DNA from: Gemmatimonadales bacterium
GTDB lineage: Bacteria; Gemmatimonadota; Gemmatimonadetes; Gemmatimonadales; GWC2-71-9
Reading direction: 5' to 3'
NCBI GenBank assembly: GCA_035576905.1
Contig: DATLWA010000036.1
Span: 1-38,031 of the forward strand
Length of the DNA stretch: 38,031 nucleotides
A model generated the notes under the pieces. The model made no database searches, was not told where the DNA came from, and was given only the letters and a program-made list of their open reading frames with translations. Shown one piece after another: positions 9,255 through 35,178 of this stretch (positions are counted from its first letter, which is position 1; every line of letters starts with the position of its first letter). The position numbers and the translations under genes were made by a program.

Positions 9255-9904
9255 GCGGCGCCGCCGATACCTTCGGCGGCTATCGCGCTCGCTTGGTCGA
9301 GACATTGCGCGGGCTGGGCATCCAGAATCTGGCTGTCCTCAAGGCGTTCGCGGAGACCCCGCGGCATCTGTTCGTGCCCGAGGCCGTGCGCCACCGCGCC
9401 TACGAGGACTCCGCGCTGCCGATCGGGGCAGGGCAGACCATTTCCCGGCCCTACACGCAGGCGCGCTACCTCGAGGTCCTGCGCCTGACCGGGCGCGAAC
9501 GGGTGCTCGAAATCGGCACCGGCTCGGGCTATCAAACCGCGTTGCTCGGCGCCCTCGCCGACCAGGTGTTCACGATCGAGCGCGTGCGCCCGCTCGCCGA
9601 GGCGGCCCGCGAATCACTGCGGGCTGCCGGGGTGGGGAACGTGTCGATTCTGGTGGGAGACGGCACACTCGGCTGGAGCGCGTACGCGCCCTACGATGCG
9701 ATCCTGGTGGCCGCCGGGGGACCGCAGGTCCCGCCACCGCTGATCGAGCAGCTGGGGTTGGCCGGGCGCATGCTCATCCCCCTGGGCGAGCGCGGGGCCC
9801 AGGTGTTGACGCTGGTCGAGCGCGCCGCGGACGGCCTCCGCCAAACGCCCCTCGACGGCGCGCGGTTCGTCCCCCTGCTTGGAGAACACGGCTTCGATGC
9901 TTGA
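9236..9904 (+). CDS. pcm: protein-L-isoaspartate O-methyltransferase
   Basis: Motifs PRHLFVPE, ALPIGAGQTISRPY and VLEIGTGSGYQTALL (SAM motif I). The start is uncertain because no ATG is available. GTG 9236 gives 222 aa, which is the usual size. Confidence 0.85.
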   Translation: MESRRLSGAADTFGGYRARLVETLRGLGIQNLAVLKAFAETPRHLFVPEAVRHRAYEDSALPIGAGQTISRPYTQARYLEVLRLTGRERVLEIGTGSGYQTALLGALADQVFTIERVRPLAEAARESLRAAGVGNVSILVGDGTLGWSAYAPYDAILVAAGGPQVPPPLIEQLGLAGRMLIPLGERGAQVLTLVERAADGLRQTPLDGARFVPLLGEHGFDA

Positions 9905-10526
9905 GTCGTTCGTCCATTGGCTGCTGGAACGCTTCCGCGACATGGGCTATCCCGGCATCGTCATCCTGATGGCGATGGAATCGTCCGTGCTGCCGGTGCC
10001 CAGCGAGCTGGTCATGCCGCCGGCCGGCTACCTCGCGGCCAAGGGCGAGATGAACCTCGTCATCGCGATCGCCTGCGGGGTGCTCGGCAGCGTCCTGGGG
10101 GCGCTCGCCAACTACGGCGTGGCGTTATGGCTGGGGCGCGCGGTGATCCGGCGAGCGGGGCGTTACTTGTTGATCAGCGACAAGGCGCTGGACCGCGCCG
10201 AGCGCTTTTTCGACCGCCACGGCGAGATCAGCACGCTGCTCGGCCGGATGTTGCCGGTGGTGCGGCACCTGATTTCGATCCCCGCCGGCATCGCGCGCAT
10301 GTCCTTGCCGCGCTTCGTGCTGTTCACGGGGCTCGGGGCCTTTCTGTGGTGCACCATCCTGGCCACCATCGGCTACGTGCTGGGGCAGCATGAGGACGTG
10401 CTGAGTAACGTGGAGGTGCAGCACTACGTGAGCCGGGCACTCGTGTACCTGATTCCGGCGCTCATCGTCACGGTGATCGTCTACGCCTGGCGGCAACGGC
10501 GCCGCGCCGGGGCCAAGACGCCGTGA
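9897..10526 (+). CDS. DedA-family membrane protein
   Basis: Motifs GYPGIVILMAMESSVLPVPSELVMPPAGYLAA and RMLPVVRHLISIPAGIARM match the DedA/SNARE-associated signature. ATG 9897 overlaps the pcm stop by 8 nt. Confidence 0.8.
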   Translation: MLESFVHWLLERFRDMGYPGIVILMAMESSVLPVPSELVMPPAGYLAAKGEMNLVIAIACGVLGSVLGALANYGVALWLGRAVIRRAGRYLLISDKALDRAERFFDRHGEISTLLGRMLPVVRHLISIPAGIARMSLPRFVLFTGLGAFLWCTILATIGYVLGQHEDVLSNVEVQHYVSRALVYLIPALIVTVIVYAWRQRRRAGAKTP

Positions 10527-10798
10527 GCCGCGCGGTCCGCTACCTGGTGCAGGGGCGGGTCCAAGGCGTGGGCTTCCGGTGGTTCGTGTCGCGTACCGCG
10601 CAGGGCCTGCGTCTGGTCGGCTGGGTCGCTAACTTGCCCGGCGGCGAAGTCGAGGTCGTGGCTGCCGGCGACACGGGCCGCCTCGACGAATTGGAACAGG
10701 CGCTCAAACGTGGACCGCCCGCGGCGCACGTGGCGCGTGTGGACAAGGCAGAGTATCCACACGAAGCGGACGTCGGTAATTCGTTTGAAATCAGGTGA
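10523..10798 (+). CDS. acyP: acylphosphatase
   Basis: The 91-aa protein carries VQGRVQGVGFRWF, GWVANLPGGEVEV and a canonical acylphosphatase fold signature. GTG 10523 overlaps the dedA stop (GTGA). Confidence 0.85.
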   Translation: MSRAVRYLVQGRVQGVGFRWFVSRTAQGLRLVGWVANLPGGEVEVVAAGDTGRLDELEQALKRGPPAAHVARVDKAEYPHEADVGNSFEIR

Positions 10799-10838
10799 TT
10801 GCTGCGTGGCTCACGGATTTGCGCCGTCGATGGCGGCC

Positions 10839-10868
10839 TTGCACCAAGATGCGTAAGCTCGTTATTCT
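10839..10868 (+). promoter_or_regulatory. possible sigma70-type promoter for tRNA-Arg
   Basis: TTGCAC (10839-10844), an 18-nt spacer, then TATTCT (10863-10868), ending 10 nt before the mature tRNA 5' end. Pattern match only. Confidence 0.3.
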
Positions 10869-10878
10869 TAACCGCTTA

Positions 10879-10952
10879 GCCCCTGTAGCTCAGGTGGATA
10901 GAGCAGCGGTTTCCTAAACCGTTGGCCGGGTGTTCGAGTCACCCCAGGGGCA
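10879..10952 (+). tRNA. tRNA-Arg (anticodon CCT)
   Basis: Hand-folded cloverleaf. Acceptor stem GCCCCTG/CAGGGGC has 7 perfect pairs. D stem is GCTC/GAGC. Anticodon stem is GCGGT/ACCGT with loop TTCCTAA, giving anticodon CCT. T arm is GGGTG-TTCGAGT-CACCC and the discriminator is A. CCA is not encoded. Confidence 0.9.
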
Positions 10953-11002
10953 CTGGGGTTGTCCGAACGGCGCAGCTTTCTCGCAAACAGTAAAGGATTA
11001 CG

Positions 11003-11650
11003 GTGGACGACCAAGACTTTGCCGCCAGGTTGTGGGCGTGGATTCAGGGGCACCGTCAGGCGAGCACGTACGGCGGCCTGGCGATCGTGGCGATTGCGGG
11101 GCTCTTGTGGTGGAATCACATCTCGACGCGGCAGAGCGAAGAGCGCGCCGGCACGTCGTTGAACGAGGCACGCCTCGCGTTCGAGACCAAGAACTTCCCG
11201 TTGGCCTCGAGCGAGCTCTCCAGCGTGGTGGCGAACTACTCCGGCACGCGGGCGGCGCAGGAGGCGACGATCCTGCTGGCGCAGATCCGGTTGCTCCAGG
11301 GCCAGAGTCAGCAGGCAATCGAGCAGCTCAAGGCGTTCGCCCCCAAGGCGGACGCCGTATACCGCGCCCAGGCGTACGGGCTGCTGGGTGCGGCCTACGA
11401 CAACGTGGACCATCCTCAGGAGGCGGCGGAGGCTTATGAACAGGCCGCCGCGGCCGCCCAGATGGACTTTCTCCGGGCGCAGTTTCTGTCGGACGCCGGG
11501 CGGGCCTGGGTGGCGGCGCGGGATACCACGAAGGCAATCGCTGCTTATCAGTCCATCGTCACGAAGTACGATTCGCTGGGGACGGCCGTAGAAGCGAAGG
11601 TGCGCCTGGGGGAGCTGACCCGGGGCGCGTGGAAGGCACCGGCAAAGTAG
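11003..11650 (+). CDS. membrane-anchored TPR-like protein, YfgM-like architecture
   Basis: One N-terminal TM helix (YGGLAIVAIAGLLWW) is followed by a helical-repeat periplasmic part (GTRAAQEATILLAQIRLLQG, YRAQAYGLLGAAY). The size and layout resemble YfgM-type proteins. Family assignment is tentative. Confidence 0.6.
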   Translation: MDDQDFAARLWAWIQGHRQASTYGGLAIVAIAGLLWWNHISTRQSEERAGTSLNEARLAFETKNFPLASSELSSVVANYSGTRAAQEATILLAQIRLLQGQSQQAIEQLKAFAPKADAVYRAQAYGLLGAAYDNVDHPQEAAEAYEQAAAAAQMDFLRAQFLSDAGRAWVAARDTTKAIAAYQSIVTKYDSLGTAVEAKVRLGELTRGAWKAPAK

Positions 11651-17980: not shown

Positions 17981-19121
17981 CGACGCGCCGATAGATGGTC
18001 TCGAAGTGCTCGGCGACGGCAGCGGGCTCGAGCCGCCGCCGCAACGCCGCACCGGCCGCCGCGGCGAGAGCGCGCGCGCCCGGATCGGACACCAGCTCTT
18101 CGATGGCGCGCGCGATCTCGCCCACCTCCGGCGCCACGAGACGGCCACCGCCGCTCTCCGGCACGATGTCCGTCACGCCGCCGCCGTCGCGGGTGGCCAT
18201 CACCGGTACGCCCAACACCAACGCCTCCGCCGCGGCGAGTCCGAAGCCCTCGCCGAGCGCGGGGAACGCGAACACGTCGGCGTCGCCGATGGCGTCGGCG
18301 ACACGTTCCGGGGGGACCGCGCCGGCGAAGCGCACCTGGTCACCAAGCCGCAGCTCGGCGACGTAACGCTCCAGCCGCGCCCGCTCCGGTCCGTCGCCAA
18401 TGATGGTGAGCGGCAGCGTGCGCCCGCGCGCGCGCAGCTGGGCCAGCGCGTCGAGCAGCAGGTCGAGCCGCTTGCGTGGCATGAGGCGGCCGACCGTCAC
18501 GACGCCCCCGCCGCCGCGGCTGGTCCGTGTGAATCGCGCGCCCTCGATCGGCATGGGCTGGACGGCGATGCGCGCGCGCTCGAACTGGAGCGCCCGCGCG
18601 GCGCGGTCGGCGAGGTCCGAGGATACCGCGGTGACGGCAGCGGCGCCGCGAAGGACGCGTCGCGCGAGGACGCGGGCTGCCGGCCACCGCTCGAGCAAGA
18701 CGACATCCATGCCGTGCAGCGTCACGACGTAGGGCCGGCGGGCGAGCCAGGCGCTCACGCCACCCGGCACCCACCAGTGAGCGTGCACGACGTCGAGCCC
18801 TTCTGCCGTCCACAGCGACCGCACGGCGCGCGCCTGCCGCCACACCAACGAGCCGAACCAGGCCAGACCCAGGGGCGAGCGCAGCGCGGCGAGCATCATG
18901 CCGGTGTAGGCGAGCGTCTCGGAACGTGCCGGGGCGTAGCGGATCCGCGTTACGGCGACCCCATGGCGGATCTCGTCCCCGCCCCGCCCCGCATCGGCCG
19001 GCGCCAGCACATGCACGGCGTGCCCGCGCGCTACGAGGCCCGTCGCCAGGCGCTCGAGGAACGCGCCGGCCACGTCGCCGTCGTGACGGGGGTACGCGTG
19101 CGTCAGGATGCCGACGCGCAA
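17955..19121 (-). CDS. GT-B glycosyltransferase (family 4 type)
   Basis: Track ORF 17955..20078 trimmed to TTG 19121 (codon 320), giving the usual N-terminus (L/M)RVGILTHAYP. C-terminal motifs are GRLMPRKRLD and FAFPALGEGFGLAAAEALVLGVPV, the EX7E region. Confidence 0.85.
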   Translation of the reverse strand: MRVGILTHAYPRHDGDVAGAFLERLATGLVARGHAVHVLAPADAGRGGDEIRHGVAVTRIRYAPARSETLAYTGMMLAALRSPLGLAWFGSLVWRQARAVRSLWTAEGLDVVHAHWWVPGGVSAWLARRPYVVTLHGMDVVLLERWPAARVLARRVLRGAAAVTAVSSDLADRAARALQFERARIAVQPMPIEGARFTRTSRGGGGVVTVGRLMPRKRLDLLLDALAQLRARGRTLPLTIIGDGPERARLERYVAELRLGDQVRFAGAVPPERVADAIGDADVFAFPALGEGFGLAAAEALVLGVPVMATRDGGGVTDIVPESGGGRLVAPEVGEIARAIEELVSDPGARALAAAAGAALRRRLEPAAVAEHFETIYRRVATGSRSNT

Positions 19122-19129
19122 CGCACGGC

Positions 19130-20176
19130 CTAGTTCGACCAGACGGCGGGGACGTGGCACGCCTGGGCGAATTGCACCGCGACACCGGCGTCGGTGCAGG
19201 CGCGCACCAGGCTCGCGAGATTCGCCCGCACGCCCTGGAGGTCGTACAAGCGGCTGCGATTGGGAAGCAGCTCGTCGGCGTGGAACTGGGTCGCAAACAC
19301 CAGCGGTCCGGCGCGGCCGCGACGCAGCGCCGAGCGGAGCTGCGCCACGAGCGGGGCGAAGTAGACCGGGCGGGCCGTGACGTTGATGCAGTAGCTGGGC
19401 CGGCGAATGGCGCTCCAGATCTGCCCGATGTTCCGCGTCTTGCGCGCGAGCTGGAGGCCGCTGACCAGGCTCCACGGAATCGACTGGGAGACGAAGCTCG
19501 GGACCTGCAGCAGCCGCGAGGCGGTCTCCCCGTCCTGCACCGGGCGCCGATAGTCCGCGCGCGACGGCCAGAACGGGACGCGGGGCGAGCGGTACCAATC
19601 GAAGAGATTCTCGCTGCGCCGCGGCGGCGACGCGGTGAGCGTGCGATACCCCGGGAGCGCGGACAGGTCGACTTTCAGTCCCAGCTGCTCCAGGGCGGCG
19701 TAGGTGCGGTTGTTGTGATAGGCCCAGCCCATCCGCACGCTCTGGATCGCACCCGGGAAGGACGCCGCCAGGTCGCGATGCGCCCGCTGCAGCATGTCCA
19801 CCTGCCAGTCGACGTCCTCGAGCTCCTGAAACCACGCCTGGTGCGGCGCCTCGCGGCGCCAGAAATGCGGGTGCCAGCCCAGCTCGTCGCCGCTCTGCTG
19901 CAGCGAGCGCAGCAGGGATCCTTGCGCCCGCACGACCCACCCGTACTCGCCCTGCAGCTCGCGGACTTGCTCGTCGGCCCGCAGCATCCATGTGAACACC
20001 GGTTCGCGGCCGGCACTGTCCGTCAAGCCGTGGAGCAGGTTCTTGACGGCGGGGATGCCCTCGGTCAAGCCACGCCAAGTGAGCGTGCCGTGTGGCACGC
20101 CGTCGAGCAATCCTTCGCGGTCAGGATCGACGTCGCAATTGATGACGATGTAGACGGTGCGCGCCACGGTCACCAC
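19130..20176 (-). CDS. polysaccharide-deacetylase-like (glycoside hydrolase/deacetylase fold) protein, tentative
   Basis: Clean high-GC3 frame of 348 aa. VYIVINCDVDPD and GWHPHFW are reminiscent of Asp/His metal-site motifs in CE4-like or DUF-type deacetylases. Coding is confident; the function is weakly supported. Confidence 0.5.
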   Translation of the reverse strand: MVTVARTVYIVINCDVDPDREGLLDGVPHGTLTWRGLTEGIPAVKNLLHGLTDSAGREPVFTWMLRADEQVRELQGEYGWVVRAQGSLLRSLQQSGDELGWHPHFWRREAPHQAWFQELEDVDWQVDMLQRAHRDLAASFPGAIQSVRMGWAYHNNRTYAALEQLGLKVDLSALPGYRTLTASPPRRSENLFDWYRSPRVPFWPSRADYRRPVQDGETASRLLQVPSFVSQSIPWSLVSGLQLARKTRNIGQIWSAIRRPSYCINVTARPVYFAPLVAQLRSALRRGRAGPLVFATQFHADELLPNRSRLYDLQGVRANLASLVRACTDAGVAVQFAQACHVPAVWSN

Positions 20177-21174
20177 AAGTTATCGAGGTCGGAATCGAAG
20201 AAATCCACCCGGATGGCGCCCGCGACGCCGGCGGCCAGCACCACCGGATACGGACGGGTGACGTACATCCCTGTGGAGCGGAACTCGCTCGCGTCCTTGA
20301 CCGAGCTCAGCCCGACGATGCCGTACGTCCCCGGCGCGTCTTCGAGCGCGAACCGCATCGCCTCGGCCAGGAGGTCCTGTCGCGCCGTGCGGGTGCCGAC
20401 CAGGGCACACACTTTCACCAGGTCCATGTCCTTGACGTGGTGTTTGGCGCGGCGGTAGACGACGAAGCCGTCGATCGCTCCGGCGCGATCGCGATGCAAG
20501 AACGTGAAGTACGTCCGGTTGGGCTGAGCCAGCTTGTAATTAAGGAAGGCGGCGTCGCGCATGCCGTAGAGCTCATACTGCTCTTTGAGGAGCCGGTCCC
20601 AGATGCCGTCCCACTCCGGCAGAAACCGGGTGATCGCCTCGAGCGTGCCGTGACGGAGCCGCGTGTTGGGGCGCCACACCGCGTTCGCGACGGTCAACAG
20701 GGGGCTGAGCGCCGCCGGCTTGTTCCAGTAGGCCAGCGCCTTGCGGGGCGCAAAGAAGCGCGCGTAATACTTGTTGGCGTCGCGGATGATCTGGTGGCCG
20801 CGGCGCAGGTACGCCGGCTCGATGGCCGGGACGACGCCCACAGCGCCGTACTTCAAGCCGGGCGCCTCTTCGCAGGCTTTGAGCAGTTGCCGCCCGGCCG
20901 CCTTCCGGGTGGCGTCGTCGGACATGTCGAGGACCAGCGTGATCCCCCACCCCACCTTCACGGGCGGCCGGCCGTCGGCGTAGCGAAACTCATGCGCCAC
21001 CTGGCCGATCTGCCCCACCACTTTGCCGTCCGCCAGCGCGAGGTAGCGAGCGCAGCGCTGCCAGTCGTAGAGCGACCGCTCGCCCAGCTCCGGGTGATCG
21101 GGGCTCCATTTCTTCATCATCGCCAGGGTTGCGGCGAGATACTGCTCGTCGAACGGGATGACTGCGACTGGCAT
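20170..21174 (-). CDS. GNAT/FemAB-fold acyltransferase-like protein, tentative
   Basis: Track ORF 20170..22047 trimmed to ATG 21174 (334 aa). This start lies 2 nt after the upstream stop. The two-lobed size and segments such as GFVVYRRAKHHVKDMDLVKVCALVG resemble BioF2-like/Fem-type GNAT duplications. Function is weakly supported. Confidence 0.5.
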   Translation of the reverse strand: MPVAVIPFDEQYLAATLAMMKKWSPDHPELGERSLYDWQRCARYLALADGKVVGQIGQVAHEFRYADGRPPVKVGWGITLVLDMSDDATRKAAGRQLLKACEEAPGLKYGAVGVVPAIEPAYLRRGHQIIRDANKYYARFFAPRKALAYWNKPAALSPLLTVANAVWRPNTRLRHGTLEAITRFLPEWDGIWDRLLKEQYELYGMRDAAFLNYKLAQPNRTYFTFLHRDRAGAIDGFVVYRRAKHHVKDMDLVKVCALVGTRTARQDLLAEAMRFALEDAPGTYGIVGLSSVKDASEFRSTGMYVTRPYPVVLAAGVAGAIRVDFFDSDLDNLW

Positions 21175-21176
21175 TG

Positions 21177-22139
21177 CTACGGTTGGACCTTCTCGCTGCG
21201 CAGCCGATCGACCGTGCGCTGCAAACTTTCCACTTCCTCGCGCATGCCGGCCACCAGCTCGCCCACGAAGCCGAAGCCGAACAGCGCGATGCCGGAAATC
21301 ACGAGCACCATGATGAGGTCGAGGAGCGGCCGAAATCCGACGTGCGGCGGCCCGAAGCGCAGGTACAGCGCGGCCACGCCGCCCAGGAAGCCGAGCAGGA
21401 ACAGCACCGCGCCCGAGAGCCCGAAGAACAGCATCGGCTTGCGCCCGAAGCGCAGCTGGAACCACACCGACAGCAGATCGAGCACGCCTACGGGAATACG
21501 GCCCAGGCCGAACTTCGACTTCCCCGCCCGCCGCGGATGCAGCGGCACGGGTCGCTCGGCCAGCCGGAAGCCGCGCCCCGCGGCGATCACCACCATGAAG
21601 CGGTGCCAGTCGGGCCGCATCGGCACGGCGTCCATCACCTCGCGGCGGTAGGCCTTCACGGAATTCAAGTCGGTGACCCGCACGCCGAACAGCAGGCGGC
21701 AGAGACCGTTGTAGATCCAGGAGACGAACCGCTTTTCGTAATGCCCCTGCTTCGTGCCCGTGACGATGTCCGCCTCGCCCGCGAGCACCGGTGCCACGAG
21801 CGCCGGAATGTCGGCCGGCAGGTATTGCAGGTCCGCGGGATAGAACACGAGCACGCGGCCGCGGGCGGCGTCGGCGCCGGAGCGCAGCGCCGCGGCGATG
21901 CCCTGCTGGCCGCGATGGGTGACGGACCGGACGAACGCATGCTTCTGCACGAGATCGCGCAGCACGGCGGGCGTGCCGTCGGTGCTGCCGTCGTCGATCA
22001 CTACTACCTCGCACGCATACGGCAGCGACAGGAACGCTTCGCGGCACAGCCGCACGAACTCCGGCAGGTTCTCCGCTTCGTCCTTGGCCGGGACGAGCAC
22101 ACTCACGTCCGGCGTGGCGTTGGCGGTCGCCAGGCTCAT
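21177..22139 (-). CDS. membrane-anchored GT2, polyprenyl-phosphate glycosyltransferase type (GtrB/ArnC/DPM-like)
   Basis: Motifs VSVLVPAKDEAENL, VVVIDDGSTDGT and YPADLQY (a DADLQ-like motif). Two C-terminal TM helices are present (MLFFGLSGAVLFLLGFLGGVAALYL and LLDLIMVLVISGIALFGFGFVGELV). ATG 22139 overlaps the rpoN stop (ATGA). Confidence 0.8.
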   Translation of the reverse strand: MSLATANATPDVSVLVPAKDEAENLPEFVRLCREAFLSLPYACEVVVIDDGSTDGTPAVLRDLVQKHAFVRSVTHRGQQGIAAALRSGADAARGRVLVFYPADLQYLPADIPALVAPVLAGEADIVTGTKQGHYEKRFVSWIYNGLCRLLFGVRVTDLNSVKAYRREVMDAVPMRPDWHRFMVVIAAGRGFRLAERPVPLHPRRAGKSKFGLGRIPVGVLDLLSVWFQLRFGRKPMLFFGLSGAVLFLLGFLGGVAALYLRFGPPHVGFRPLLDLIMVLVISGIALFGFGFVGELVAGMREEVESLQRTVDRLRSEKVQP

Positions 22140-23593
22140 AGCCGCTTGCGCATCCGGGCGGGCAGGATGTTCAGCTGGTCGCGGTACTTGGCGACGGTGC
22201 GCCGCGCGATCTTGACGCCGCGCTGCGCGAACAGCTCCACGATCTGCTGGTCGGTGAGGGGGCTCTTGGGCGCTTCGTCGGCCACGAGCTTCTCGATCTG
22301 GGCCTTGATGGAGCGGGCGCTGGCGTCCTCGCCGGTGGTGGTGGTGAGGCCGCTCGAGAAGAAGAACTTGAGCGGCAGCAGGCCGCGCGGCGTCTGCACG
22401 TACTTCTCGTTGGTGACGCGGCTGACCGTGCTCTCGTGCATGTTGATGACGTCGGCGACTTCGCGCAGCGTCAGCGGTTTGAGAAACTCGACGCCTTTTT
22501 CGAAGAAGTCGCGCTGCCGGTCGACGATGAAGTTCATGACCTTGAGCATGGTCTGGCGGCGCTGCTCGATGGCCTGGATCATCCAGTGCGCGCTGTTGAG
22601 CCGCTGATTGACGAATTCCTTGTTCTCCCCCTGAAACTGCTTCTTGTCCTTGGCCAGGTCCGAATAGGCGCGCGCGATGCGCAGCCGGGGCAGCCCCTGG
22701 TCGTTCAAGGAGACGTGGTAGCGGTTGTCGACCTTCTCCACCACCATGTCGGGGATGATGTACGCGTCGTCGGAGCGCGCGTACTGCAGGCCCGGCTTGG
22801 GATCGAGGCGGGCCAGATCGTCGGCCACGCGTTGCACTTCCGCCGGCTCGATGCCGAACTTCTTCCCCAGGTCACTCCAGCGGTGGGCGATGAGGTCGTC
22901 GAACGCTTCCTTCACGAGTCGATACGCCAGCGTGTCCTGCTGCTTCTGGTCCTCGAGCTGCAGCACCAGGCACTCACGCAGATCGCGGGCGCCCACGCCC
23001 GGCGGGTCGAGCTTCTGCACGATGTGCAGCATTTCCTCGACTTCCGGCAGCGTGAACCATGGCACGTCGCCGTCCTTGCCGATCTCGTCGGCGTGCTCGG
23101 CGATGAGCTGGTTGGCGCCGGCGACGATCTGGTCGAGGGACGCCGTCAGATAGCCGTCTTCCTTGATGTTGCCGAGGAATTCTTCGGCGAGCAGCTGCTG
23201 GCGCGGCGTCAGGACGAGCATCTGCAATTGCTCGCGCAGGTGATCGATCAGGTCCTTGGTCTCGACCGGCGTGGGCTCGACGTAATCGGCCACGGCGCTC
23301 AAGTCGGGGCTGCCGGCGAGCTTCTCCGCGCCGTCGTCCAGGAGGATGTTTTCCCAGTCGGGCTCGTCTTGGTCCGACTTCTCCTGCTCCGCTTGCTTAT
23401 CGGCGGTGGCGGGCGTGTCCTCTTCGTCTTCGGGCTCGATCAGCTCGAGGAACGGATTGGACAAGAGCTCCTGCTTCAGATGCTGCTGCAGGTCGAGCAG
23501 CGGCATGTAGAGGAGGTCCATCGCCTGGTAGAGCCGCGGATTGATCCGCAGCTCCTGGCGCATCGACTGGTGCTGCTGCATGCCGCCCTTCAT
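22136..23593 (-). CDS. rpoN: RNA polymerase sigma-54 factor
   Basis: Gln-rich region I ([11 protein letters not shown]...[12 protein letters not shown]), an acidic linker, and the C-terminal RpoN box [15 protein letters not shown] 23593 overlaps the lptB stop. Confidence 0.95.
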
Positions 23594-24774
23594 GCGGCCT
23601 CGGACAGGCGGGAGCGCAGGCGCGCCGTGAGCGTGGGCCCGAGGTAGAGGTCGGCCACGCGGTCGTTGAAGACGAGCTCGCGGACGGTGCCCGAGACCTG
23701 GACCTTGCCCTCGAACATGATGTAGGCGCGATCCACGATATCGAGCGTCTGCTCCACGTTGTGATCCGTAATCAGCACGCCGATACCGCGATGGCGCAGG
23801 CTCGCCACGATGGTCTGAATGTCGTGCACCGCAATCGGGTCCACTCCGGCGAAGGGCTCGTCCAGCAGCATGAACTTGGGCTGCGTGACGAGTGCCCGCG
23901 TGATCTCGAGGCGGCGGCGCTCGCCGCCCGACAGCTGGAATGCCTTCTGGCGGCGCAGGTGCTTGATGGCGAGCTCGTCGAGCAGGCCCTCGAGCCGCTG
24001 CTGCTGCTCGCGCTCGTCGATCGGCAGGGTTTCGAGGATGGCCAGGACGTTCTCCTCGACGGTGAGCTTGCGGAACACCGACGGCTCCTGTGCCAGGTAG
24101 CCGATGCCCGCCCGGGCGCGCCGGAACATCGGCTCGCCGGTGATGTCGCGCTGGTCGATCAGGATGCGCCCCTGCTCGGGCTTGATCAGCCCGGTGATCA
24201 TGTAGAACGTCGTGGTCTTCCCCGCTCCGTTGGGACCGAGCAGGCCCACGATCTCGCCCTGCTCGAGCCGCACCGAAACGTCGTCCACCACCCGGCGGCG
24301 GCGGTAGGTCTTCACCAGCGACTGCGCCTCGAGCACGCTGCCGTCACGCACCGCCGCGTGCTCGCCGCTGACCGCCTCCGCCCGATGGCTCGCCAGCGCC
24401 AGTAGCTCGGCCACCGCGGCCTCGCGCCGGGGACCCAGGTCCGCCCAGACCGCCGCGCTGAACGCCACCGGCGCCTCGCCCCAGAGCTGGCCCGTGGGCA
24501 CGAGCGCGACGTCGAGCAGCGCGAGCCGCGGCAGCACCGAGGTGCGCAGGTGGTCCCGCGCCTCGTCCACGGACAGGGTCCCGGCGTCGGGGCCCGTGAG
24601 GCCGGTCAGCTCGCTGCGCAGGCGCAGGAACGCGTCGCGATAGGCGATGGCCAGCTCGTCGAACGTGGTGCGGCCGTCGGCACCCGCCACGCGCGCCAGC
24701 GCCGCCGCGCCCAGGGCGAGCGACGAGTCGCGCGTCGCGAGCAGCTCGGAGAGTGCGGTGGACGGCGCGTTCAT
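23590..24774 (-). CDS. lptB: LPS export ABC transporter ATPase LptB with a ~146-aa N-terminal extension
   Basis: The C-terminal 248 aa form a canonical ABC ATPase: [34 protein letters not shown], and ITDHN. The same frame stays open with high GC3 up to ATG 24774, which overlaps the upstream stop (ATGA). Internal GTGs at 24351 and 24336 are alternative starts. Confidence 0.85.
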
Positions 24775-26117
24775 GGGCGGCGCTTGGGCGCGGGGGGCGC
24801 GGGGGGCCGGGCGCGGTGCGTCGAGTCCGCCGCGTGCTTCTTCGTGGTGTCGACCGGCGGGCGCGGGGTCAAGTGGACGCCGTCCGCCTGGCCGCTCACG
24901 AGCACGCGATCGACCTTGTCGCCGATCATCGTGATCGCGATCTGCTTGCCGCGGGAATAGTCGATGGCCGGCGGCTGGGTCTTGTCCTTGGCGTCGTAGT
25001 GATGCGTGAGCGCGCGTGCCGAGCCGCGGGCGACGAGGCGTTGCAGCTGGGCCTTGGCGTGGCCGGTGGAGTCCGGCGCCTGCACCCAGTGGGCCGTGAG
25101 CGTGTCGCCGCCGATCCAGTCGGTCTCCGCCGGGCCGGACGTGGAGTCGCGCTTGGACGTGGAAAATGCGCGGCGATAGGCGCGCGCCTCGGTGAGGACT
25201 TCGTCGGGGACGTCGAGGGCGAGCGAGTCCGATTGGATGGTCTGAAGCGTCGAGACGGCGTGCGGCCGCGACGAATCGCCCCAGGCGAACGCCTGCTGGA
25301 GTTTGGACTTCGTGAGCACGAGCCGGATGGTATCGGCGGTGAGGTGCCAGTCGGCGCCGGACGCCTGCCCCGCGCCGCGGGCGTCCACCTGCTTCAATTC
25401 GTGGTCCGATTGCAGCAGCTCGATGCGGGTCCCCACCAGCGTGTAGGACCGCTCGCCCTTCCCCTGGACTTTCGGCTTGCCGATCAGGACGGCGAGTCCG
25501 GTCGTCTGATCCATGGCCATGGAATCGGCGCGGGCGGCGAGGTCGGAGCGGTCGACGGTGACGTTGCCGCCGGACCACATGCGGTCGTTGCCCTTGAAGT
25601 GGACGCGGTCGCCCACGATGACGTACGGCTCGCTGGAGTCCGCCTGGCCCCGGTACTCGATGGTGGGCCGCTGCGTGGCGAACATCTCGAGGGTGTCGCG
25701 AATGCCCGGGGCGGCGCGGAGGTAGTTCAAGTTGGGCCCGCGCAGGGTGGAGCCGTTGCTGCGGTTCTTGGCGACCACGTTATTGTGCGCTTCGAGTCGT
25801 TCCTCACGCAGATAGTAGTACGCCAGATTGGCGTCCAGCGCGAGGGACGTATCGCGGATCTTGACGCGCCCGATCATGTCGAAGCGGCGCTGACCGGAAT
25901 ACCAGGCCACGCTGTCGGAGGAAAACGACGTGCTGGTGCCATTGCAGTGGGCCAACACCCCGCCGCCCGCGAAATAGTTGGTGTCGCCGGCGGCGCCGAT
26001 CGTCTGGCGGCCGTAGTGGCCCACGGAGTCGACGGCGATCTGGCAGGGACGTCCCTGCGGCCGCGTCGTGTCGGCCTGCGTGGGTTGCTGGGCGAGGGCC
26101 ATGAGCACCACGATCAC
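24771..26117 (-). CDS. OstA/LptA-like periplasmic protein, oversized (448 aa)
   Basis: It occupies the lptA slot between lptC and lptB. It contains repeated beta-rich segments of OstA-N type ([53 protein letters not shown]) and a short hydrophobic N-terminus. The C-terminal tail is Pro/Arg/Lys-rich ([13 protein letters not shown]). Confidence 0.65.
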
Positions 26118-26653
26118 TGATTCGGCAGCGTGAAGGTGCCGCCGGTCGCGCGCGGGTGCTTGGCGACGACGTTGCGGAAGCCGGGGTCGGAGGTGAAGCC
26201 ATCGCCTTCGACGTGCTTGCCGGGTCCATCGTAGGTGAAGGCCTTGTCGGACGAGACCTCGCTCCGCGCCTCGCTGTAGCGCATCACTTCGGAACGCAGC
26301 GTGCGCCCGTCGGTGGTGAGCACGACGACGTTGCCGCGCGCCTCCATCTCCCCCGAGCGCGTGTGGTAGGTCCCTTCGCGCGACGTCAGAGTCGACGTCT
26401 GGGTGCCGCGATCGTCGTAAAACGTCACGTGCACGCCGCGCAGCTCGGCGCTCTGCGTGTTGGAGTACATGTACGCGGTGTCGGACCGTACCCGCGCGCG
26501 CACGATGCCCTCGCCCGTGATGTAGGTTGACATCTGCACCAGCACCTGGTCGGCGCTGTCGGGGGCGTTGATCGTCGCCGTGGGGCGTATGCCCCCGCCG
26601 CAGCCGGCGCCGATCACGCCGCCGAACAGCAGCGCCGCGCAGACGCCTCTCAT
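26114..26653 (-). CDS. lptC: LPS export protein LptC-like
   Basis: 179 aa with a hydrophobic N-terminus (MRGVCAALLFGGVIGAGC) and a beta-rich body (VHVTFYDDRGTQTS...EARGNVVVLTTDGRTL). It sits between kdsD and the lptA-like gene, as in E. coli. ATGA and GTGA overlaps on both sides. Confidence 0.65.
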   Translation of the reverse strand: MRGVCAALLFGGVIGAGCGGGIRPTATINAPDSADQVLVQMSTYITGEGIVRARVRSDTAYMYSNTQSAELRGVHVTFYDDRGTQTSTLTSREGTYHTRSGEMEARGNVVVLTTDGRTLRSEVMRYSEARSEVSSDKAFTYDGPGKHVEGDGFTSDPGFRNVVAKHPRATGGTFTLPNQ

Positions 26654-27624
26654 GCGACCCCCGCTTTCATGAGATCGTGCAGGTGCACCATCCCCACGAC
26701 TTTGCGGCCGTCGCCGAGGACGGGCAGCGCCATGATGCCGTGCTGCTCCATCACGCGGACGGCCGCGCCGGCCAGCTCGCCGGGTTCGGTGGTCTTGGGG
26801 GACTTGGTCATCACGTCACGCACCGGCAGGTCGAGAAAATTCGGCTGGCGCTCCATCAGGCGGGTGAGATCCCCCGCGGTCACCACGCCCGCGAGCTCGC
26901 CCGTGCCGTTGACGACCGCGACGGTGCCGCGCCGTTGCGCCAGCAGCACCACGCATTCGCGCATCGGCCGGTCGGGCGCGAGCGTGGGCACCTGCTGGGT
27001 GACCATGACGTCGGCGACGCGCAGCAGCAGCGCTCGTCCCAGCGCGCCGGCCGGATGCAGCGCGGCGAAGTCCTCACGACGCACGCCCTTCACTTCGAGC
27101 AGCGTGACGGCGAGCGCGTCGCCCAGCGCCAGCGCGACGGTCGTGCTCGCGGTCGGGGCCAGCGTCTCGGGACAGGCTTCTTCCGCCACTCCTGCGTCGA
27201 GGACGACGGCCGCGTGGCGCGCCAGCACCGAGTCGGCCTGCCCCGTGAGCGCGATGATGGGCACGCCGCGGCGCTTGAGCTGGTCCACCAGGCCGAACAG
27301 CTCGTCGGTGGCGCCGCTCTTGGACAACAGGATGGCGACGTCGTTCGCGCCCACGATGCCCAGATCGCCGTGCAGCGAGTCGACCGGGTGGAGGAACGCG
27401 GCCGGCGTGCCCGTCGAGGTGAATGTGGCGGCGATCTTTCTTGCGATGAGCCCCGACTTCCCCACGCCCGAGACGATCACGCGCCCGCTGGCGTGCGCCA
27501 GCAGATCGACGGCCCGGGCGAACGTCTCGCCCAGACGCGCGGCCACGCGCTCGATGGCCTTGGCCTCGAGTGCGAGAATCTGCCGGCCGCGCTCAACGAG
27601 CTGGGGCTGACCGTCGCGCGTCAT
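26650..27624 (-). CDS. kdsD: arabinose-5-phosphate isomerase (KdsD/KpsF type, SIS plus two CBS domains)
   Basis: SIS motifs are GRVIVSGVGKSGLIARKIAATFTSTGTPA and SKSGATDE. The C-terminal CBS pair includes MTKSPKT...GIMALPVL. Confidence 0.9.
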   Translation of the reverse strand: MTRDGQPQLVERGRQILALEAKAIERVAARLGETFARAVDLLAHASGRVIVSGVGKSGLIARKIAATFTSTGTPAAFLHPVDSLHGDLGIVGANDVAILLSKSGATDELFGLVDQLKRRGVPIIALTGQADSVLARHAAVVLDAGVAEEACPETLAPTASTTVALALGDALAVTLLEVKGVRREDFAALHPAGALGRALLLRVADVMVTQQVPTLAPDRPMRECVVLLAQRRGTVAVVNGTGELAGVVTAGDLTRLMERQPNFLDLPVRDVMTKSPKTTEPGELAGAAVRVMEQHGIMALPVLGDGRKVVGMVHLHDLMKAGVA

Positions 27625-28159
27625 CGCCTCGCTCCGCGAGATACTTCGTGACCAGTTCGTCCCACACGCCGCGCGCGCGCAGGATCAGCTCCGCCACTTC
27701 GCGCACCGCGCCGTGCCCGCCGCCCGCCGTCGTGATCACACGGGCGCAGGCGCGGATTTCCGGCACGGCGGCCGGTACGGTGATCGGCAGCGCCACGCGC
27801 TCGAGCAGCGGCAGGTCGGGCAGGTCGTCGCCGACGAAGGCGCTCTCCTCCCACTGCACGCCGTGACGCTCGAGGATGCCGGCGAATGCCGGCAGCTTCT
27901 TCTTGTCCTGCACGAGCTCGTCCACTTTCAGCTCGCGCGCGCGCAGCTCCGTCGCGTCCGACCGGCGGGCGCTCACCCACACCACGAGGATCCCCGCATC
28001 GCGCAGCAACTTGATTCCCAGGCCATCCTGGACGTCGAAGCGCTTGAATTCCACGGCGTGGTCGCCGGCGCGGCCGATGTAGACGCCGCCGTCGGTGAGG
28101 ACGCCATCGACGTCGAATCCCACCAGCTTGATGCGGCGGGCCAGCGTCGCGTCAAGCAT
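27593..28159 (-). CDS. kdsC: 3-deoxy-D-manno-octulosonate 8-phosphate phosphatase
   Basis: Track ORF trimmed to ATG 28159 (codon 32). HAD motif I is LVGFDVDGVLTDG; further motifs are FDVQDGLGIKLL and FVGDDLPDLP. Confidence 0.85.
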   Translation of the reverse strand: MLDATLARRIKLVGFDVDGVLTDGGVYIGRAGDHAVEFKRFDVQDGLGIKLLRDAGILVVWVSARRSDATELRARELKVDELVQDKKKLPAFAGILERHGVQWEESAFVGDDLPDLPLLERVALPITVPAAVPEIRACARVITTAGGGHGAVREVAELILRARGVWDELVTKYLAERGDDARRSAPAR

Positions 28160-29057
28160 TGCGGCCTCGAGCCGCGCGCGCCGAGGGTGCCGCCTTCGCT
28201 CGGTCCTCGACGCGCCCCCCGCCCTTCCCCTGGGACCTCGCTGCGGCGGCACCCTCGGCGCGCGCGGCGTGCCAGACGTCGAGCGCTTTCCTGAGAATGC
28301 TCTCGAGTTGATCCAAGGGGATCATGTTTGGTCCATCAGACGGCGCGTGGTCGGGATCGGGGTGCGTCTCGAGGAAAAACGCGTCGGCGCCGGCGGCCGC
28401 CGCGGCGTACAGCAGCGGCGGGATGAACTCGCGCAGGCCGCCGCTGGCGCCGTCGGAGCCCGCGCCCGGCTGCTGCACGGCGTGCGTGGCGTCGAAGATC
28501 ACGGGTGCGCGGCACGCGGCGCCGAGCCGCGCGAAATTGCGCATGTCGACCACGAGGTCGCCGTAGCCGAAGAAAGTGCCGCGCTCGGTCACGGCGACCT
28601 CGGCGGCGCCCCCGGAGCGGACCTTCTCCACGGCGCCCGCCATGCCTTCGGCGCTCATCCACTGCCCTTTCTTGACGTTCACCGGCTTGCCGGCCTTGCC
28701 CGCGGCGACGAGCAAGTCGGTCTGGCGGCACAGAAAGGCCGGGATCTGCAGCACGTCCGCGACCTGGGCGGCGGCGCTCACCTGCGCCGCATCGTGCACG
28801 TCGGTCAAGACGGGGAGGCCCGTGGCGCGGCGGACGCGCTCCAACGCCCGGAGGCCGGCGTCGATGCCGGGGCCGCGGGCGGCCTGGAGCCGCGAGCGAT
28901 TCGCCTTGTCGTAGGAGGCCTTATAGATGATCGGCAGCGGGAGCCGGCGGCCGATCTCGGCCAGCGCTTCGCCGACCGCGAGGTTCAGCTCGTCGGATTC
29001 GACGACGCAGGGCCCCGCGATGAGGAACGGAGCGCTCGCGAACTGCGGCGCAGGCAT
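28152..29057 (-). CDS. kdsA: 3-deoxy-8-phosphooctulonate (KDO-8-P) synthase
   Basis: Motifs IAGPCVVES, IYKASYDKANRS, IPAFLCRQTDLL, VNVKKGQ, FDATHAVQ and ETHPDP. It has a ~35-aa Ala/Arg/Gly-rich C-terminal tail. Confidence 0.95.
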   Translation of the reverse strand: MPAPQFASAPFLIAGPCVVESDELNLAVGEALAEIGRRLPLPIIYKASYDKANRSRLQAARGPGIDAGLRALERVRRATGLPVLTDVHDAAQVSAAAQVADVLQIPAFLCRQTDLLVAAGKAGKPVNVKKGQWMSAEGMAGAVEKVRSGGAAEVAVTERGTFFGYGDLVVDMRNFARLGAACRAPVIFDATHAVQQPGAGSDGASGGLREFIPPLLYAAAAAGADAFFLETHPDPDHAPSDGPNMIPLDQLESILRKALDVWHAARAEGAAAARSQGKGGGRVEDRAKAAPSARAARGRNA

Positions 29058-29069
29058 GTCAGCCGCCGG

Positions 29070-31480
<2,411 letters not shown>

Positions 31481-33705: not shown

Positions 33706-33718
33706 GGAAAAGAAAAAG

Positions 33719-33743
33719 ACGGGGCGCCCATAGGGCGCCCCGT
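33719..33743. terminator. strong GC hairpin between convergent genes; U-tract on the minus strand
   Basis: ACGGGGCGCCC (33719-29), loop ATA, then GGGCGCCCCGT (33733-43): 11 perfect pairs. On the minus strand it is followed by CTTTTTCTTTTCC (33718-33706). This fits an intrinsic terminator for the 33767-35098 gene. The plus-strand side has no T-tract. Confidence 0.65.
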
Positions 33744-33766: not shown

Positions 33767-35098
33767 CTAGAAGAGGATCCAGGCGAGGACATACATGGTG
33801 TTGTTGTCTTTGGCCGCACGACCGGAGCCGTCGTAGTCGGTCGACCCGCCGTTGAACTTGCTATAGCCCACGTACTGGAACTGGAACCGCAGGTTCTGCC
33901 ACGGCATCACGTCGGTTTCGGCGATGAACCCGCTGCTGTTGGGACTGCCGGTCGCGCTCCCGGTCATCGGCGCGGGCGCATACAGTGTGGCGTCGCTCGT
34001 GCCCGTGGTGGAGAACGGTGCCAGCGTGAACGCGAAGCGCGAGCCGATGTGATACATCGCGGCGACGCGCACCGTGTTCAATGTGTTGGTCGCGTTCGTC
34101 GTGCCGCCCGCCGACCACTTCTGCGACTCGTGGATCCACGTCGCGTCGGTCGTAAAGCTGTTCGGCCCGAAGGACTGCATGAAGGCGAGATCGAAGGCGA
34201 CGTCGGTGAAGCGGTTGGTCGGACCGGTGACGCCCGTGGGATAGACCTGTGCAGAGATCCCGTACGTGCCGAGCGACAGGTACGAATGGCCCCACGAGTT
34301 CGGCAGGGCGAGGCGCCAATACGGGGCGACACCCTTGATCACGCCGCTGGCGCTGCCGTCGAGCGGCCGGGAGACGCCCAGCGGCGCCGAGCGGTACGCG
34401 CCGACCTCGGCGTACACCCGGTTGTTCAGCATGGTGTAGGCCGTGAGCCCCGCCACTTGCTGGCCCAGCGTCCCGTCGACGATCGTCGCAGCGGTCGGGG
34501 CGGGCGCGGCGTCCGAGCTCCCGTACGGGAAGCCCCAGGCCGGCGTGCTGTTCCACAGGTCCTGGACGGTCGGATTGTTGTTCAGGCTGAGACCGACGGT
34601 CGCGGGTTTGGCGAACAGCTTGGTTTGCGACGCGTAACGGAAGTCGGCGTTGTCGACCCCGAGGCCACCGCTCTGCGGGTCGAACGTCACCTGCAGGAAT
34701 CCACCGATATGCGTAGTGACTTCCCCGCCCGTGAAGATGCTGAGCTGGTCGGGGAAGAACACGGTGCCGTTTTGCGTGCCGGGCTGCGCCTTCTGCGTGG
34801 CGGTGTAAGACGTCTGCAGCATGAATGAGAGCGGTGTGACGAGACCCAGGAGGAGGTTTTGCTCACCGCCCGATGCGCGGCCCTGGAGCGAGTCCGAGCC
34901 CCGGCGATAGACGTAACCGTTGAGTTTGAACGCGCGGCCGGTCGCGGTGAGCTCCGGATAGTGTGTGTGGCAAGCGCTGCATGCGAGGCCCGTTTGGCGG
35001 GCGAAGGATGGCGTGCCATGGTCGGCGGCGGCCAGGGGGCTAGCGGCAAGCGCCAGGACGATCGGCAACGCTGAGACCAAGGTCAAACGGTGCGACAT
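33767..35098 (-). CDS. outer-membrane beta-barrel-like protein with one N-terminal CxxCH heme motif (fused cytochrome-porin candidate)
   Basis: Start set at ATG 35098, with GGGAG 7 nt upstream; the track start is GTG 35131. Signal peptide is MSHRLTLVSALPIVLALAASPLAAA. A single CSACH lies at 34967-34981 within FARQTGLACSACHTHYPELTATGRAFKLNGY. About 390 aa rich in Gly/Ser/Thr/Asn/Tyr/Phe follow, with alternating strands. The C-terminus is YVLAWILF. Confidence 0.75.
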   Translation of the reverse strand: MSHRLTLVSALPIVLALAASPLAAADHGTPSFARQTGLACSACHTHYPELTATGRAFKLNGYVYRRGSDSLQGRASGGEQNLLLGLVTPLSFMLQTSYTATQKAQPGTQNGTVFFPDQLSIFTGGEVTTHIGGFLQVTFDPQSGGLGVDNADFRYASQTKLFAKPATVGLSLNNNPTVQDLWNSTPAWGFPYGSSDAAPAPTAATIVDGTLGQQVAGLTAYTMLNNRVYAEVGAYRSAPLGVSRPLDGSASGVIKGVAPYWRLALPNSWGHSYLSLGTYGISAQVYPTGVTGPTNRFTDVAFDLAFMQSFGPNSFTTDATWIHESQKWSAGGTTNATNTLNTVRVAAMYHIGSRFAFTLAPFSTTGTSDATLYAPAPMTGSATGSPNSSGFIAETDVMPWQNLRFQFQYVGYSKFNGGSTDYDGSGRAAKDNNTMYVLAWILF

Positions 35099-35178
35099 GT
35101 GGTGGCTCCCACGGGAATTGGAATGCTGCACGCTGCACCAGCGTAGTGAAAGAAACTATGAAGGAATGGCGAAGAGAT

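What the first reader, a model, noticed from the sequence alone, without database searches (positions are those of the whole stretch)
33767..35098. Monocistronic fused monoheme cytochrome / outer-membrane beta-barrel candidate (Cyc2/Cyt572-like architecture)
Seen in the sequence: a Sec signal peptide is followed, 14 residues after the predicted cleavage site (after the AAA run), by exactly one heme-c attachment motif, CSACH (34967-34981). That motif sits in FARQTGLACSACHTHYPELTATGRAFKLNGY. About 390 residues follow whose composition (G/S/T/N/Y/F, alternating hydrophobics) differs sharply from the Ala/Arg-rich proteome around it. The protein ends in an OMP-type terminal Phe (LAWILF). The gene has its own SD and a strong terminator (33719-33743). 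Established knowledge: Cyc2 of Acidithiobacillus and Zetaproteobacteria, and Cyt572 of Leptospirillum, are about 440-560-aa fused monoheme cytochrome-porins implicated in Fe(II) oxidation at the outer membrane. They have this same layout: signal, a short CxxCH domain, then a barrel. Inference: this may be an outer-membrane electron-transfer conduit in an organism whose surrounding genes give no hint of such physiology. No ccm genes or other cytochrome genes are in the window.
Basis: partly seen in the sequence, partly recalled or inferred. Interest (0 to 1): 0.7.

Follow-up and report, generated by a model that had tools for sequence, protein, structure and literature searches.

The report
Cyc2-family cytochrome-porin in a Gemmatimonadota genome

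Summary
Window 33767-35098 (-) encodes a 443-aa protein with these parts:
- a signal peptide
- one heme-c motif (CSACH, 34967-34981)
- the Cyc2-defining PxFAR[Q/K][T/Y] motif (PSFARQT) before it, and PxL (PEL) four residues after it
- a 16-strand beta-barrel (AlphaFold2 pLDDT 85.5, pTM 0.83)
- a C-terminal Phe
- a strong terminator at 33719-33743

I fetched genuine Cyc2 from Acidithiobacillus rus operons. The window protein aligns to it end to end: 33% identity, BLASTP E 1e-58, and profile-profile probability 100% with E 4e-66. The single CxxCH is kept in 125 of 128 full-length representatives of 50%-identity clusters.

Pfam and NCBIfam have no model for this family. Genuine Cyc2 also scores nothing there, which explains the blank annotation.

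The host is an uncultured Gemmatimonadota/Gemmatimonadales bacterium. The rest of the window holds housekeeping genes, with no other cytochrome gene and no ccm gene found. Cyc2 homologs in Gemmatimonadota have already been reported from FeGenie-type surveys.

The closest sister clade (70-75% identity) always has a rusticyanin-like SoxE cupredoxin gene directly downstream (20 of 20 informative loci). The window's own clade lacks it.

Fe(II) oxidation is the most likely function but remains inferred.

The parts
33767..35098 (-). Coding sequence (stop codon included) of a 443-aa Cyc2-family fused monoheme cytochrome c / outer-membrane porin.
   Evidence: ORF. Full-length homology to Acidithiobacillus rus-operon Cyc2. 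More than 5,880 homologs and 2,723 50%-identity clusters at E<=1e-3.
35024..35098 (-). Probable Sec signal peptide, residues 1-25 (MSHRLTLVSALPIVLALAASPLAAA).
   Evidence: Read directly from the sequence. It has a basic n-region, a hydrophobic core and an Ala-rich end. No signal-peptide predictor was available.
34991..35011 (-). PSFARQT, the Cyc2-defining PxFAR[Q/K][T/Y] motif (residues 30-36).
   Evidence: Motif definition from PMC8406198. P30, R34, Q35 and T36 are invariant in 89 homologs. The same motif and spacing occur in Acidithiobacillus Cyc2.
34967..34981 (-). CSACH, the single heme-c attachment motif (residues 40-44).
   Evidence: It is invariant in alignments A1 and A2. It is present exactly once in 125 of 128 cluster representatives.
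34949..34957 (-). PEL, the PxL motif starting at the fourth residue after CxxCH (residues 48-50).
   Evidence: Motif from PMC8406198. P is at +4 in 96 and L at +6 in 98 of the 125 representatives that carry CxxCH.
33773..34828 (-). Sixteen-strand beta-barrel porin domain (residues 91-442).
Evidence: The AlphaFold2 model with an 89-sequence alignment has mean pLDDT 85.5 and pTM 0.83, with 16 strands and barrel blocks mostly above 90. Foldseek's best PDB matches are outer-membrane porins: OmpT, Omp32, OmpF/C, OprO and OprP.
33770..33772 (-). C-terminal Phe (…LAWILF), the usual aromatic last residue of outer-membrane barrel proteins.
   Evidence: An aromatic last residue occurs in 114 of 116 close homologs and in 113 of 128 cluster representatives.
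35106..35110 (-). Shine-Dalgarno-like GGGAG, 7 nt before the ATG.
   Evidence: GGGAG is conserved in the relative L036.
35129..35165 (-). Conserved, relatively A+T-rich 5' region (TCCTTCATAGTTTCTTTCAC…GCAGCGTG, containing a tandem GTGCAGC GTGCAGC). This is a possible promoter or regulator-binding site.
   Evidence: It is conserved between the window and L036 (protein 87% identical), although the upstream gene differs. No sigma-70 consensus match was found. Its function is inferred.
33709..33743 (-). Intrinsic terminator: an 11-bp G+C-rich hairpin followed by a T-run.
   Evidence: the hairpin is kept in both the MFE and the centroid structures. A convergent LMF1-family gene ends at 33705.

Best explanation
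The gene encodes a member of the Cyc2 family: a single polypeptide with a short N-terminal monoheme c-type cytochrome segment fused to a 16-strand outer-membrane porin.

Proposed mechanism, step by step:
1. The Sec system exports the protein. This is inferred from the signal peptide.
2. The cell's cytochrome c maturation system, encoded outside the window, attaches heme covalently to C40/C43, with H44 as axial ligand. This is inferred from the invariant CxxCH.
3. The barrel is inserted into the outer membrane, with the heme segment at or inside its periplasmic mouth. The barrel is shown by the model. The position of the heme segment is not shown.
4. Dissolved Fe(II), or another small reductant, enters the pore and gives one electron to the heme. 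This is inferred from characterised Cyc2 proteins.
5. A periplasmic carrier takes the electron to a terminal oxidase or reductase. In the closest sister clade the carrier is very probably the rusticyanin-like SoxE cupredoxin encoded immediately downstream. In this lineage that gene is not adjacent, so the partner is unknown.

My confidences are about 0.95 for family membership, about 0.85 for a real heme-bearing outer-membrane protein, and about 0.45 for Fe(II) as the physiological substrate.
For: - Consensus motifs: all the published Cyc2 motifs are present (PMC8406198; sequence).
- Homology to genuine Cyc2: the comparator comes from Acidithiobacillus rus operons, fetched with a rusticyanin query. 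Its operon layout cyc2-cyc1-orf-coxB-coxA-coxC-rus was checked by Pfam. Scores are BLASTP 33% identity and E 1e-58 over residues 4-443, phmmer 192-200 bits, and hhalign probability 100%, E 4.3e-66.
- Fold: 16 strands, pLDDT 85.5, with porin matches in the PDB.
- Conservation: heme motif and flanks are conserved in 125 of 128 cluster representatives and invariant in 89 aligned sequences.
- Missing annotation explained: genuine Cyc2 has no Pfam hit either.
- Partner in relatives: a cupredoxin gene follows directly in 20 of 20 informative loci at >=70% identity. It has the C-x4-H-x4-M spacing and weak similarity to rusticyanin. This mirrors the Cyc2-to-rusticyanin route of A. ferrooxidans (PMC10654088).
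Against: - No experiment supports heme attachment, outer-membrane location or Fe(II) oxidation for this protein or for any Gemmatimonadota homolog.
- The window has no electron-carrier, oxidase or ccm gene.
- The window's clade has lost the adjacent cupredoxin gene.
- Cyc2 homologs are common in heterotrophs not known to oxidise iron. Keffer et al. warn that function is uncertain away from the validated clades.
- The cytochrome segment is modelled with low to moderate confidence.
Confidence: 0.85

Rival explanations
1. It is a true Cyc2-family heme-porin, but its physiological job is not energy-yielding Fe(II) oxidation. It might instead handle iron detoxification or uptake-related redox, oxidise another small reductant (reduced humics, Mn(II), Cu(I), sulfur species), or take up electrons from solids.
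For: - The context is housekeeping, with no respiratory partner.
- The family is very widespread in soil metagenomes and in heterotrophic taxa.
- Keffer et al. caution about function outside the validated clades.
- The Gemmatimonadota survey could not decide between oxidation and reduction.
- In one relative the gene sits next to a two-component system and multiheme cytochromes.
Against: - All biochemically tested family members oxidise Fe(II).
- The sister clade's strict pairing with a rusticyanin-like cupredoxin resembles the A. ferrooxidans iron route.
- The heme environment motifs are the same as in the iron oxidases.
Confidence: 0.4
2. It is an ordinary diffusion porin. Its N-terminal CxxCH is a relic that no longer binds heme.
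For: The barrel's best structural matches are general and specific porins. The N-terminal segment is modelled poorly.
Against: CxxCH and about 20 flanking residues are the most conserved part of the protein across thousands of homologs. Such conservation is not expected of a relic. Only 3 of 128 cluster representatives lack the motif, and two of these appear N-terminally truncated.
Confidence: 0.03
3. It is the porin part of a multi-subunit porin-cytochrome complex of the MtrAB/PioAB/MtoAB type.
For: Both are outer-membrane barrels linked to c-type hemes.
Against: The barrel has 16 strands, not about 26 (comparison). The heme site is on the same polypeptide. There is no multiheme cytochrome gene in the window. 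Homology is to Cyc2.
Confidence: 0.01

Closest known systems
[quoted passage not shown]
   Same: - Order of parts: signal peptide, PSFARQTG, two residues, CxxCH, three residues, PxL, then T..GR.FKL.G[YF], then a 16-strand barrel ending in an aromatic residue.
- Full-length alignment with 33% identity.
- Neither protein matches any Pfam model.
   Different: - The window protein is about 40-50 residues shorter, with shorter loops.
- The host is a Gemmatimonadota bacterium, and the contigs carrying this protein and its homologs are mostly from soil and sediment metagenomes, not an acidophile.
- It is not in an operon with cyc1, cox genes or rusticyanin.
- Iron oxidation is untested.
Cyc2 PV-1 of Mariprofundus ferrooxydans and the neutrophilic 'Cluster 1' Cyc2 proteins (Keffer et al. 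2021, PMC8406198)
   Same: Same family definition: the consensus motif, one heme and a 16-strand porin modelled on OprO/OprP. The window protein meets these criteria.
   Different: I could not obtain these sequences, so direct similarity and cluster assignment were not measured. In the paper's Fig. S7 table as held in machine-read form, identities between sequences of different clusters are mostly 15-23% and those within the A. ferrooxidans group 27-35%. The 33% identity to Acidithiobacillus Cyc2 therefore suggests the window protein sits nearer that cluster. This is an inference.
Cyt572 of Leptospirillum
   Same: It is described in the literature as a member of the same fused cytochrome-porin family, in Cluster 3.
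   Different: Not compared here. Cyt572 is reported to sit on a long branch and to carry an unusual heme.
OprO/OprP phosphate porins and the general 16-strand porins (OmpF/OmpC, Omp32, OmpT)
   Same: The barrel fold is shared. Foldseek E-values run from 1e-7 to 1e-10, with TM-scores of 0.4-0.6.
   Different: Sequence identity is only 9-14%. These porins have no heme segment.

Membership tests
Cyc2 fused cytochrome-porin family (criteria of Keffer et al. 2021 / FeGenie) | N-terminal signal peptide | tested here: met
   MSHRLTLVSALPIVLALAASPLAAA has the form of a Sec signal. This was judged by inspection only, because no predictor was available.
Cyc2 fused cytochrome-porin family (criteria of Keffer et al. 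2021 / FeGenie) | [quoted passage not shown] | tested here: met
   One CSACH at residues 40-44. It is conserved in homologs.
Cyc2 fused cytochrome-porin family (criteria of Keffer et al. 2021 / FeGenie) | PXFAR[Q/K][T/Y] motif upstream of CXXCH | tested here: met
   PSFARQT at residues 30-36, three residues before C40. The spacing is the same as in Acidithiobacillus Cyc2. The optional leading Ala of AXPXFAR is Gly here.
Cyc2 fused cytochrome-porin family (criteria of Keffer et al. 2021 / FeGenie) | PXL motif four residues after CXXCH | tested here: met
   The sequence reads CSACH-THY-PEL.
Cyc2 fused cytochrome-porin family (criteria of Keffer et al. 2021 / FeGenie) | Length of at least 365 residues | tested here: met
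   443 aa.
Cyc2 fused cytochrome-porin family (criteria of Keffer et al. 2021 / FeGenie) | C-terminal 16-strand beta-barrel porin | tested here: met
   Both AlphaFold2 models have 16 strands. The better one has pLDDT 85.5 and pTM 0.83. The PDB matches are porins.
Cyc2 fused cytochrome-porin family (criteria of Keffer et al. 2021 / FeGenie) | Significant sequence similarity to a reference Cyc2 (the paper used blastp E <= 1e-5) | tested here: met
   E 1e-58 with 33% identity to A. ferrivorans rus-operon Cyc2. hhalign probability 100%.
Cyc2 fused cytochrome-porin family (criteria of Keffer et al. 2021 / FeGenie) | Score above the FeGenie Cyc2 HMM cut-off, and assignment to Cluster 1, 2 or 3 | not testable with these tools
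   The FeGenie HMMs and the reference tree are not available here. Only an indirect hint exists, from identity levels.
Cyc2 fused cytochrome-porin family (criteria of Keffer et al. 2021 / FeGenie) | Covalently bound heme, outer-membrane location and Fe(II) oxidation activity | not testable with these tools
   These need biochemistry.
Cyt572 (Leptospirillum) | Direct sequence similarity to Cyt572 | not tested
MtrB/PioB/MtoB porin-cytochrome complexes | A barrel of about 26 strands with a separate multiheme cytochrome partner encoded nearby | tested here: not met
   The barrel has 16 strands. There is no multiheme cytochrome gene in the window.

The most novel reading that the evidence does not exclude
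Uncultured Gemmatimonadota, whose homologs here come largely from soil and sediment metagenomes, may run a minimal two-gene module for oxidising Fe(II) at near-neutral pH. It would consist of Cyc2 plus a rusticyanin-like SoxE cupredoxin, paralleling the acidophile Cyc2-to-rusticyanin route. The window's lineage would then carry a relocated, partner-less cyc2 copy that either uses a carrier encoded elsewhere or has shifted to another substrate. If so, members of this phylum generally regarded as heterotrophs would be facultative iron lithotrophs.
Probability: 0.25. Interest if true: 0.55.

Novelty: new member of a known kind. Interest (0 to 1): 0.3.

Why it matters
Cyc2 is the most widely used marker gene for microbial iron oxidation. 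This case shows three things. A clear family member is invisible to Pfam and NCBIfam and is labelled 'hypothetical' or 'cytochrome C' in the database records. The family is very large in environmental data, with 2,723 clusters at 50% identity. In Gemmatimonadota its genomic context splits into a clade strictly paired with a cupredoxin gene and a clade without one. That split gives a concrete handle for testing whether these bacteria really oxidise iron, and which carrier they use. For the window itself the result is mainly a secure annotation rather than a discovery.

Tried and rejected
- Pfam, NCBIfam and PDB sequence searches with the protein found nothing. This is uninformative, because genuine Cyc2 also has no Pfam hit.
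- I looked for published Cyc2 sequences in paper texts and supplements. No usable sequences turned up, and the motif-string search returned only noise. I therefore fetched Acidithiobacillus rus operons through a rusticyanin query.
- No Cyc2 appears among the structure matches, and the PDB sequence search found nothing, so no direct structure comparison was possible.
- Model coordinates are not exposed, so I could not test whether the heme peptide sits inside the barrel.
- I searched the window for a SoxE or rusticyanin homolog by tblastn and found none.
- The sigma-70 promoter scan found nothing upstream, so it neither supports nor excludes a separate promoter.
- An MtrB-type complex and a relic heme motif were considered and rejected (see rival explanations).
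- Cluster 1/2/3 assignment and similarity to Cyt572 could not be determined.

Full report
**Observation.**
The minus-strand ORF 33767..35098 encodes 443 residues from an ATG. The frame stays open up to a GTG at 35131. The ATG is the likely start for two reasons. GGGAG lies 7 nt upstream (35106-35110), and the closest homologs begin with the same MSHR. One database gene call on the 38,031-base contig is 439 aa.

- The N-terminus (MSHRLTLVSALPIVLALAASPLAAA) has the form of a Sec signal peptide. I judged this by eye, as no predictor was available.
- CSACH occupies residues 40-44 (34967-34981). It is the only CxxCH in any plausible ORF of the window.
- The mature protein is 46.4% G+S+T+N+Y+F, against 25.5% for 16 other window proteins.
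- It ends in ...LAWILF.
- An 11-bp G+C-rich hairpin with a T-run lies at 33743..33719. A convergent LMF1-family gene follows.

Only 'monocistronic' is unproven. A same-strand GDSL-lipase gene ends 80 nt upstream, with no terminator detected between. However, the 5' region (35129-35165) is conserved in a relative whose upstream gene is different, which favours an own promoter.

**What it is.**
Pfam, NCBIfam and PDB sequence searches gave nothing. Even so, the protein has more than 5,880 homologs in the large protein collection. It also matches 2,723 clusters at 50% identity with E <= 1e-3.

Keffer et al. 2021 (PMC8406198) define the Cyc2 family by these features:
- a signal peptide
- one CXXCH
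- an upstream (A)XPXFAR[Q/K][T/Y] motif said to be unique to Cyc2
- a PXL motif four residues downstream
- at least 365 residues
- a 16-strand porin modelled on OprO/OprP

The window protein reads GTPSFARQTGLACSACHTHYPEL and meets each sequence criterion.

To test homology directly I needed genuine Cyc2 sequences. I confirmed a rusticyanin sequence against the PDB and used it to fetch Acidithiobacillus loci from the genome collection. Six loci carry an ORF with PSFARQTGW[ST]CA[AT]CH 5-8 kb upstream of rus. In A. ferrivorans DSM 22755 (L003) this ORF is followed by cyc1, an orf, coxB, coxA, coxC and rus, which is the classical rus operon (layout as in PMC10654088).

Comparison of the window protein with this Cyc2 gave:
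- BLASTP alignment from residue 4 to 443, 33% identity, E 1e-58
- phmmer 192-200 bits against three of the six orthologs, including this one; the other three scored 133-160 bits
- a profile of 21 Gemmatimonadota-type sequences against a profile of 12 Acidithiobacillus/Acidiferrobacter Cyc2 sequences: hhalign probability 100%, E 4.3e-66, 413 aligned columns

Genuine Cyc2 also has no Pfam match, which explains the empty annotation.

**Structure.**
With a 21-sequence alignment AlphaFold2 gave pLDDT 66.7 and 16 strands. With an 89-sequence alignment that also included relatives of Acidithiobacillus Cyc2 it gave pLDDT 85.5 and pTM 0.83. The same 16 strands span residues 91-442, and most barrel blocks score above 90.

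Foldseek against the PDB returns only outer-membrane barrels. These are mostly 16-strand porins (OmpT, Omp32, OmpF/C, chitoporin), and include OprO 4rjw and OprP 2o4v at TM 0.50-0.51. No solved Cyc2 appears among them. The idea that the heme peptide plugs the barrel was therefore not tested.

**Conservation.**
C40, C43 and H44 are invariant in 89 aligned sequences, as are P30, R34, Q35, T36, L50, G54, R55, F57 and K58. Among 128 full-length representatives of 50%-identity clusters, 125 have exactly one CxxCH. Their consensus is VPSFARQTG..CxxCHTxFPELT. The heme segment is the best conserved part of the protein, as reported for Cyc2.

**Host and context.**
Named cluster members come from Gemmatimonadota/Gemmatimonadales metagenome-assembled genomes. 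They are labelled 'hypothetical protein' or 'cytochrome C'.

The window (69% G+C) carries housekeeping genes: a GT20 trehalose-phosphate synthase, Der GTPase, GpsA, glycosyltransferases, PCMT, RpoN, an ABC ATPase, KdsA, KdsB, an LMF1-family protein, a GDSL lipase, DinB and a tyrosine recombinase. A CTP synthase is also present; its Pfam assignment comes from the gene calls on the 100%-identical contig L032, not from my scans. There is no other cytochrome gene, no ccm gene and no cupredoxin gene.

**Context in relatives.**
Gene-context look-ups covered 11 protein lineages, the window's own among them. A SoxE-type (sulfocyanin/rusticyanin-like) cupredoxin gene lies directly downstream in five of them.

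A metagenome scan made this sharper:
- 20 of 20 informative loci at >=70% identity carry the cupredoxin gene 27-145 nt downstream on the same strand.
- 0 of 36 informative loci at 44-54% identity carry it.
- The window's own clade (window, L032, L036) lacks it and has DinB(-GDSL)-cyc2 followed by a convergent LMF1 gene.

The cupredoxin has a signal peptide and the C-x4-H-x4-M copper-ligand spacing. It is weakly similar to rusticyanin: 29% identity over about 95 residues, pairwise E about 1e-5.

**Mechanism.**
The best-supported reading is a Cyc2-type outer-membrane electron conduit. Heme bound at C40/C43/H44 sits at the periplasmic side of, or inside, a 16-strand pore. It accepts an electron from dissolved Fe(II) entering the pore and passes it to a periplasmic carrier.

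- Shown: homology, motifs and the predicted barrel.
- Inferred: heme attachment, membrane location, substrate and partner.

Fe(II) is the only substrate demonstrated for characterised members. However, homologs are common in bacteria not known to oxidise iron. A survey of marine Gemmatimonadota that already reported Cyc2 homologs could not assign a direction. I put Fe(II) oxidation at about 0.45.

**Comparison and novelty.**
This is a member of a known family that standard iron-gene tools are designed to detect. Cyc2 homologs in Gemmatimonadota and in soils are already in the literature. I file it as a new member of a known kind.

In the Fig. S7 table of Keffer et al. as held in machine-read form, identities between sequences of different clusters are mostly 15-23% and those within the A. 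ferrooxidans group 27-35%. The 33% identity to Acidithiobacillus Cyc2 therefore hints that the window protein lies nearer that cluster. Cluster assignment was not testable, and Cyt572 was not compared.

The strict cyc2-soxE pairing in the sister clade is the most interesting by-product. I found no paper in the held library describing it, but that search was limited.

**Verdict.**
Interest is modest, at 0.3.

Noticed in passing
Related loci L041-L061, L076, L077; also L024 9434-10000, L028 6443-7003, L030 6136-6651, L034 1886-2416, L037 5410-5946: A SoxE/sulfocyanin-type cupredoxin gene, rusticyanin-like with C-x4-H-x4-M, lies 27-145 nt downstream of the cyc2 homolog. This holds in 20 of 20 informative metagenome loci at >=70% identity to the window protein, and in 0 of 36 at 44-54% identity. 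The window's own clade lacks it.
   Followed up: partly
L001 (A. ferruginosus CF3 plasmid pCF3-2) and L004 (A. ferrianus MG plasmid p1MG): Both cyc2 and rusticyanin lie on plasmid records in these two Acidithiobacillus strains, on the same strand with cyc2 about 5-7 kb upstream of rus. The spacing fits a plasmid-borne rus operon, but the genes in between were not examined. This fits reports of mobile elements around rus operons.
   Followed up: no
window 35129-35165 (-): A conserved, relatively A+T-rich stretch lies upstream of the gene (TCCTTCATAGTTTCTTTCAC…GCAGCGTG, with a tandem GTGCAGC GTGCAGC). It is shared with relative L036, although the upstream gene differs. It may be a promoter or regulator-binding site.
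   Followed up: partly
L025-L027 (P0083 locus), 2891-4888 and 6859-11392: In this relative the cyc2 homolog follows a GAF histidine kinase and an OmpR-type response regulator. It faces a convergent cluster whose products carry only faint multiheme-cytochrome Pfam hits. This is a different redox context from both the window and the soxE-paired clade.
   Followed up: no
window 18006-22047: Three sizeable ORFs (18006-19133 +, 19130-20176 -, 20170-22047 -) have coding-like G+C at the third codon position in part but no Pfam match. They lie next to rpoN and were not examined further.
   Followed up: no
window 22136-31480 (-): Genes for envelope biogenesis and the sigma-54 factor lie close together here: rpoN, an ABC ATPase, kdsA, a 569-aa ORF that is a CTP synthase by the gene calls on the identical contig L032, and kdsB. 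This marks the region as core chromosome rather than a mobile island.
   Followed up: partly
window 35086-35098 (-): A database gene call on the 38,031-base contig gives a 439-aa product, 4 residues shorter than the ATG start at 35098. That ATG is supported by the Shine-Dalgarno sequence and by the homolog N-termini.
   Followed up: partly
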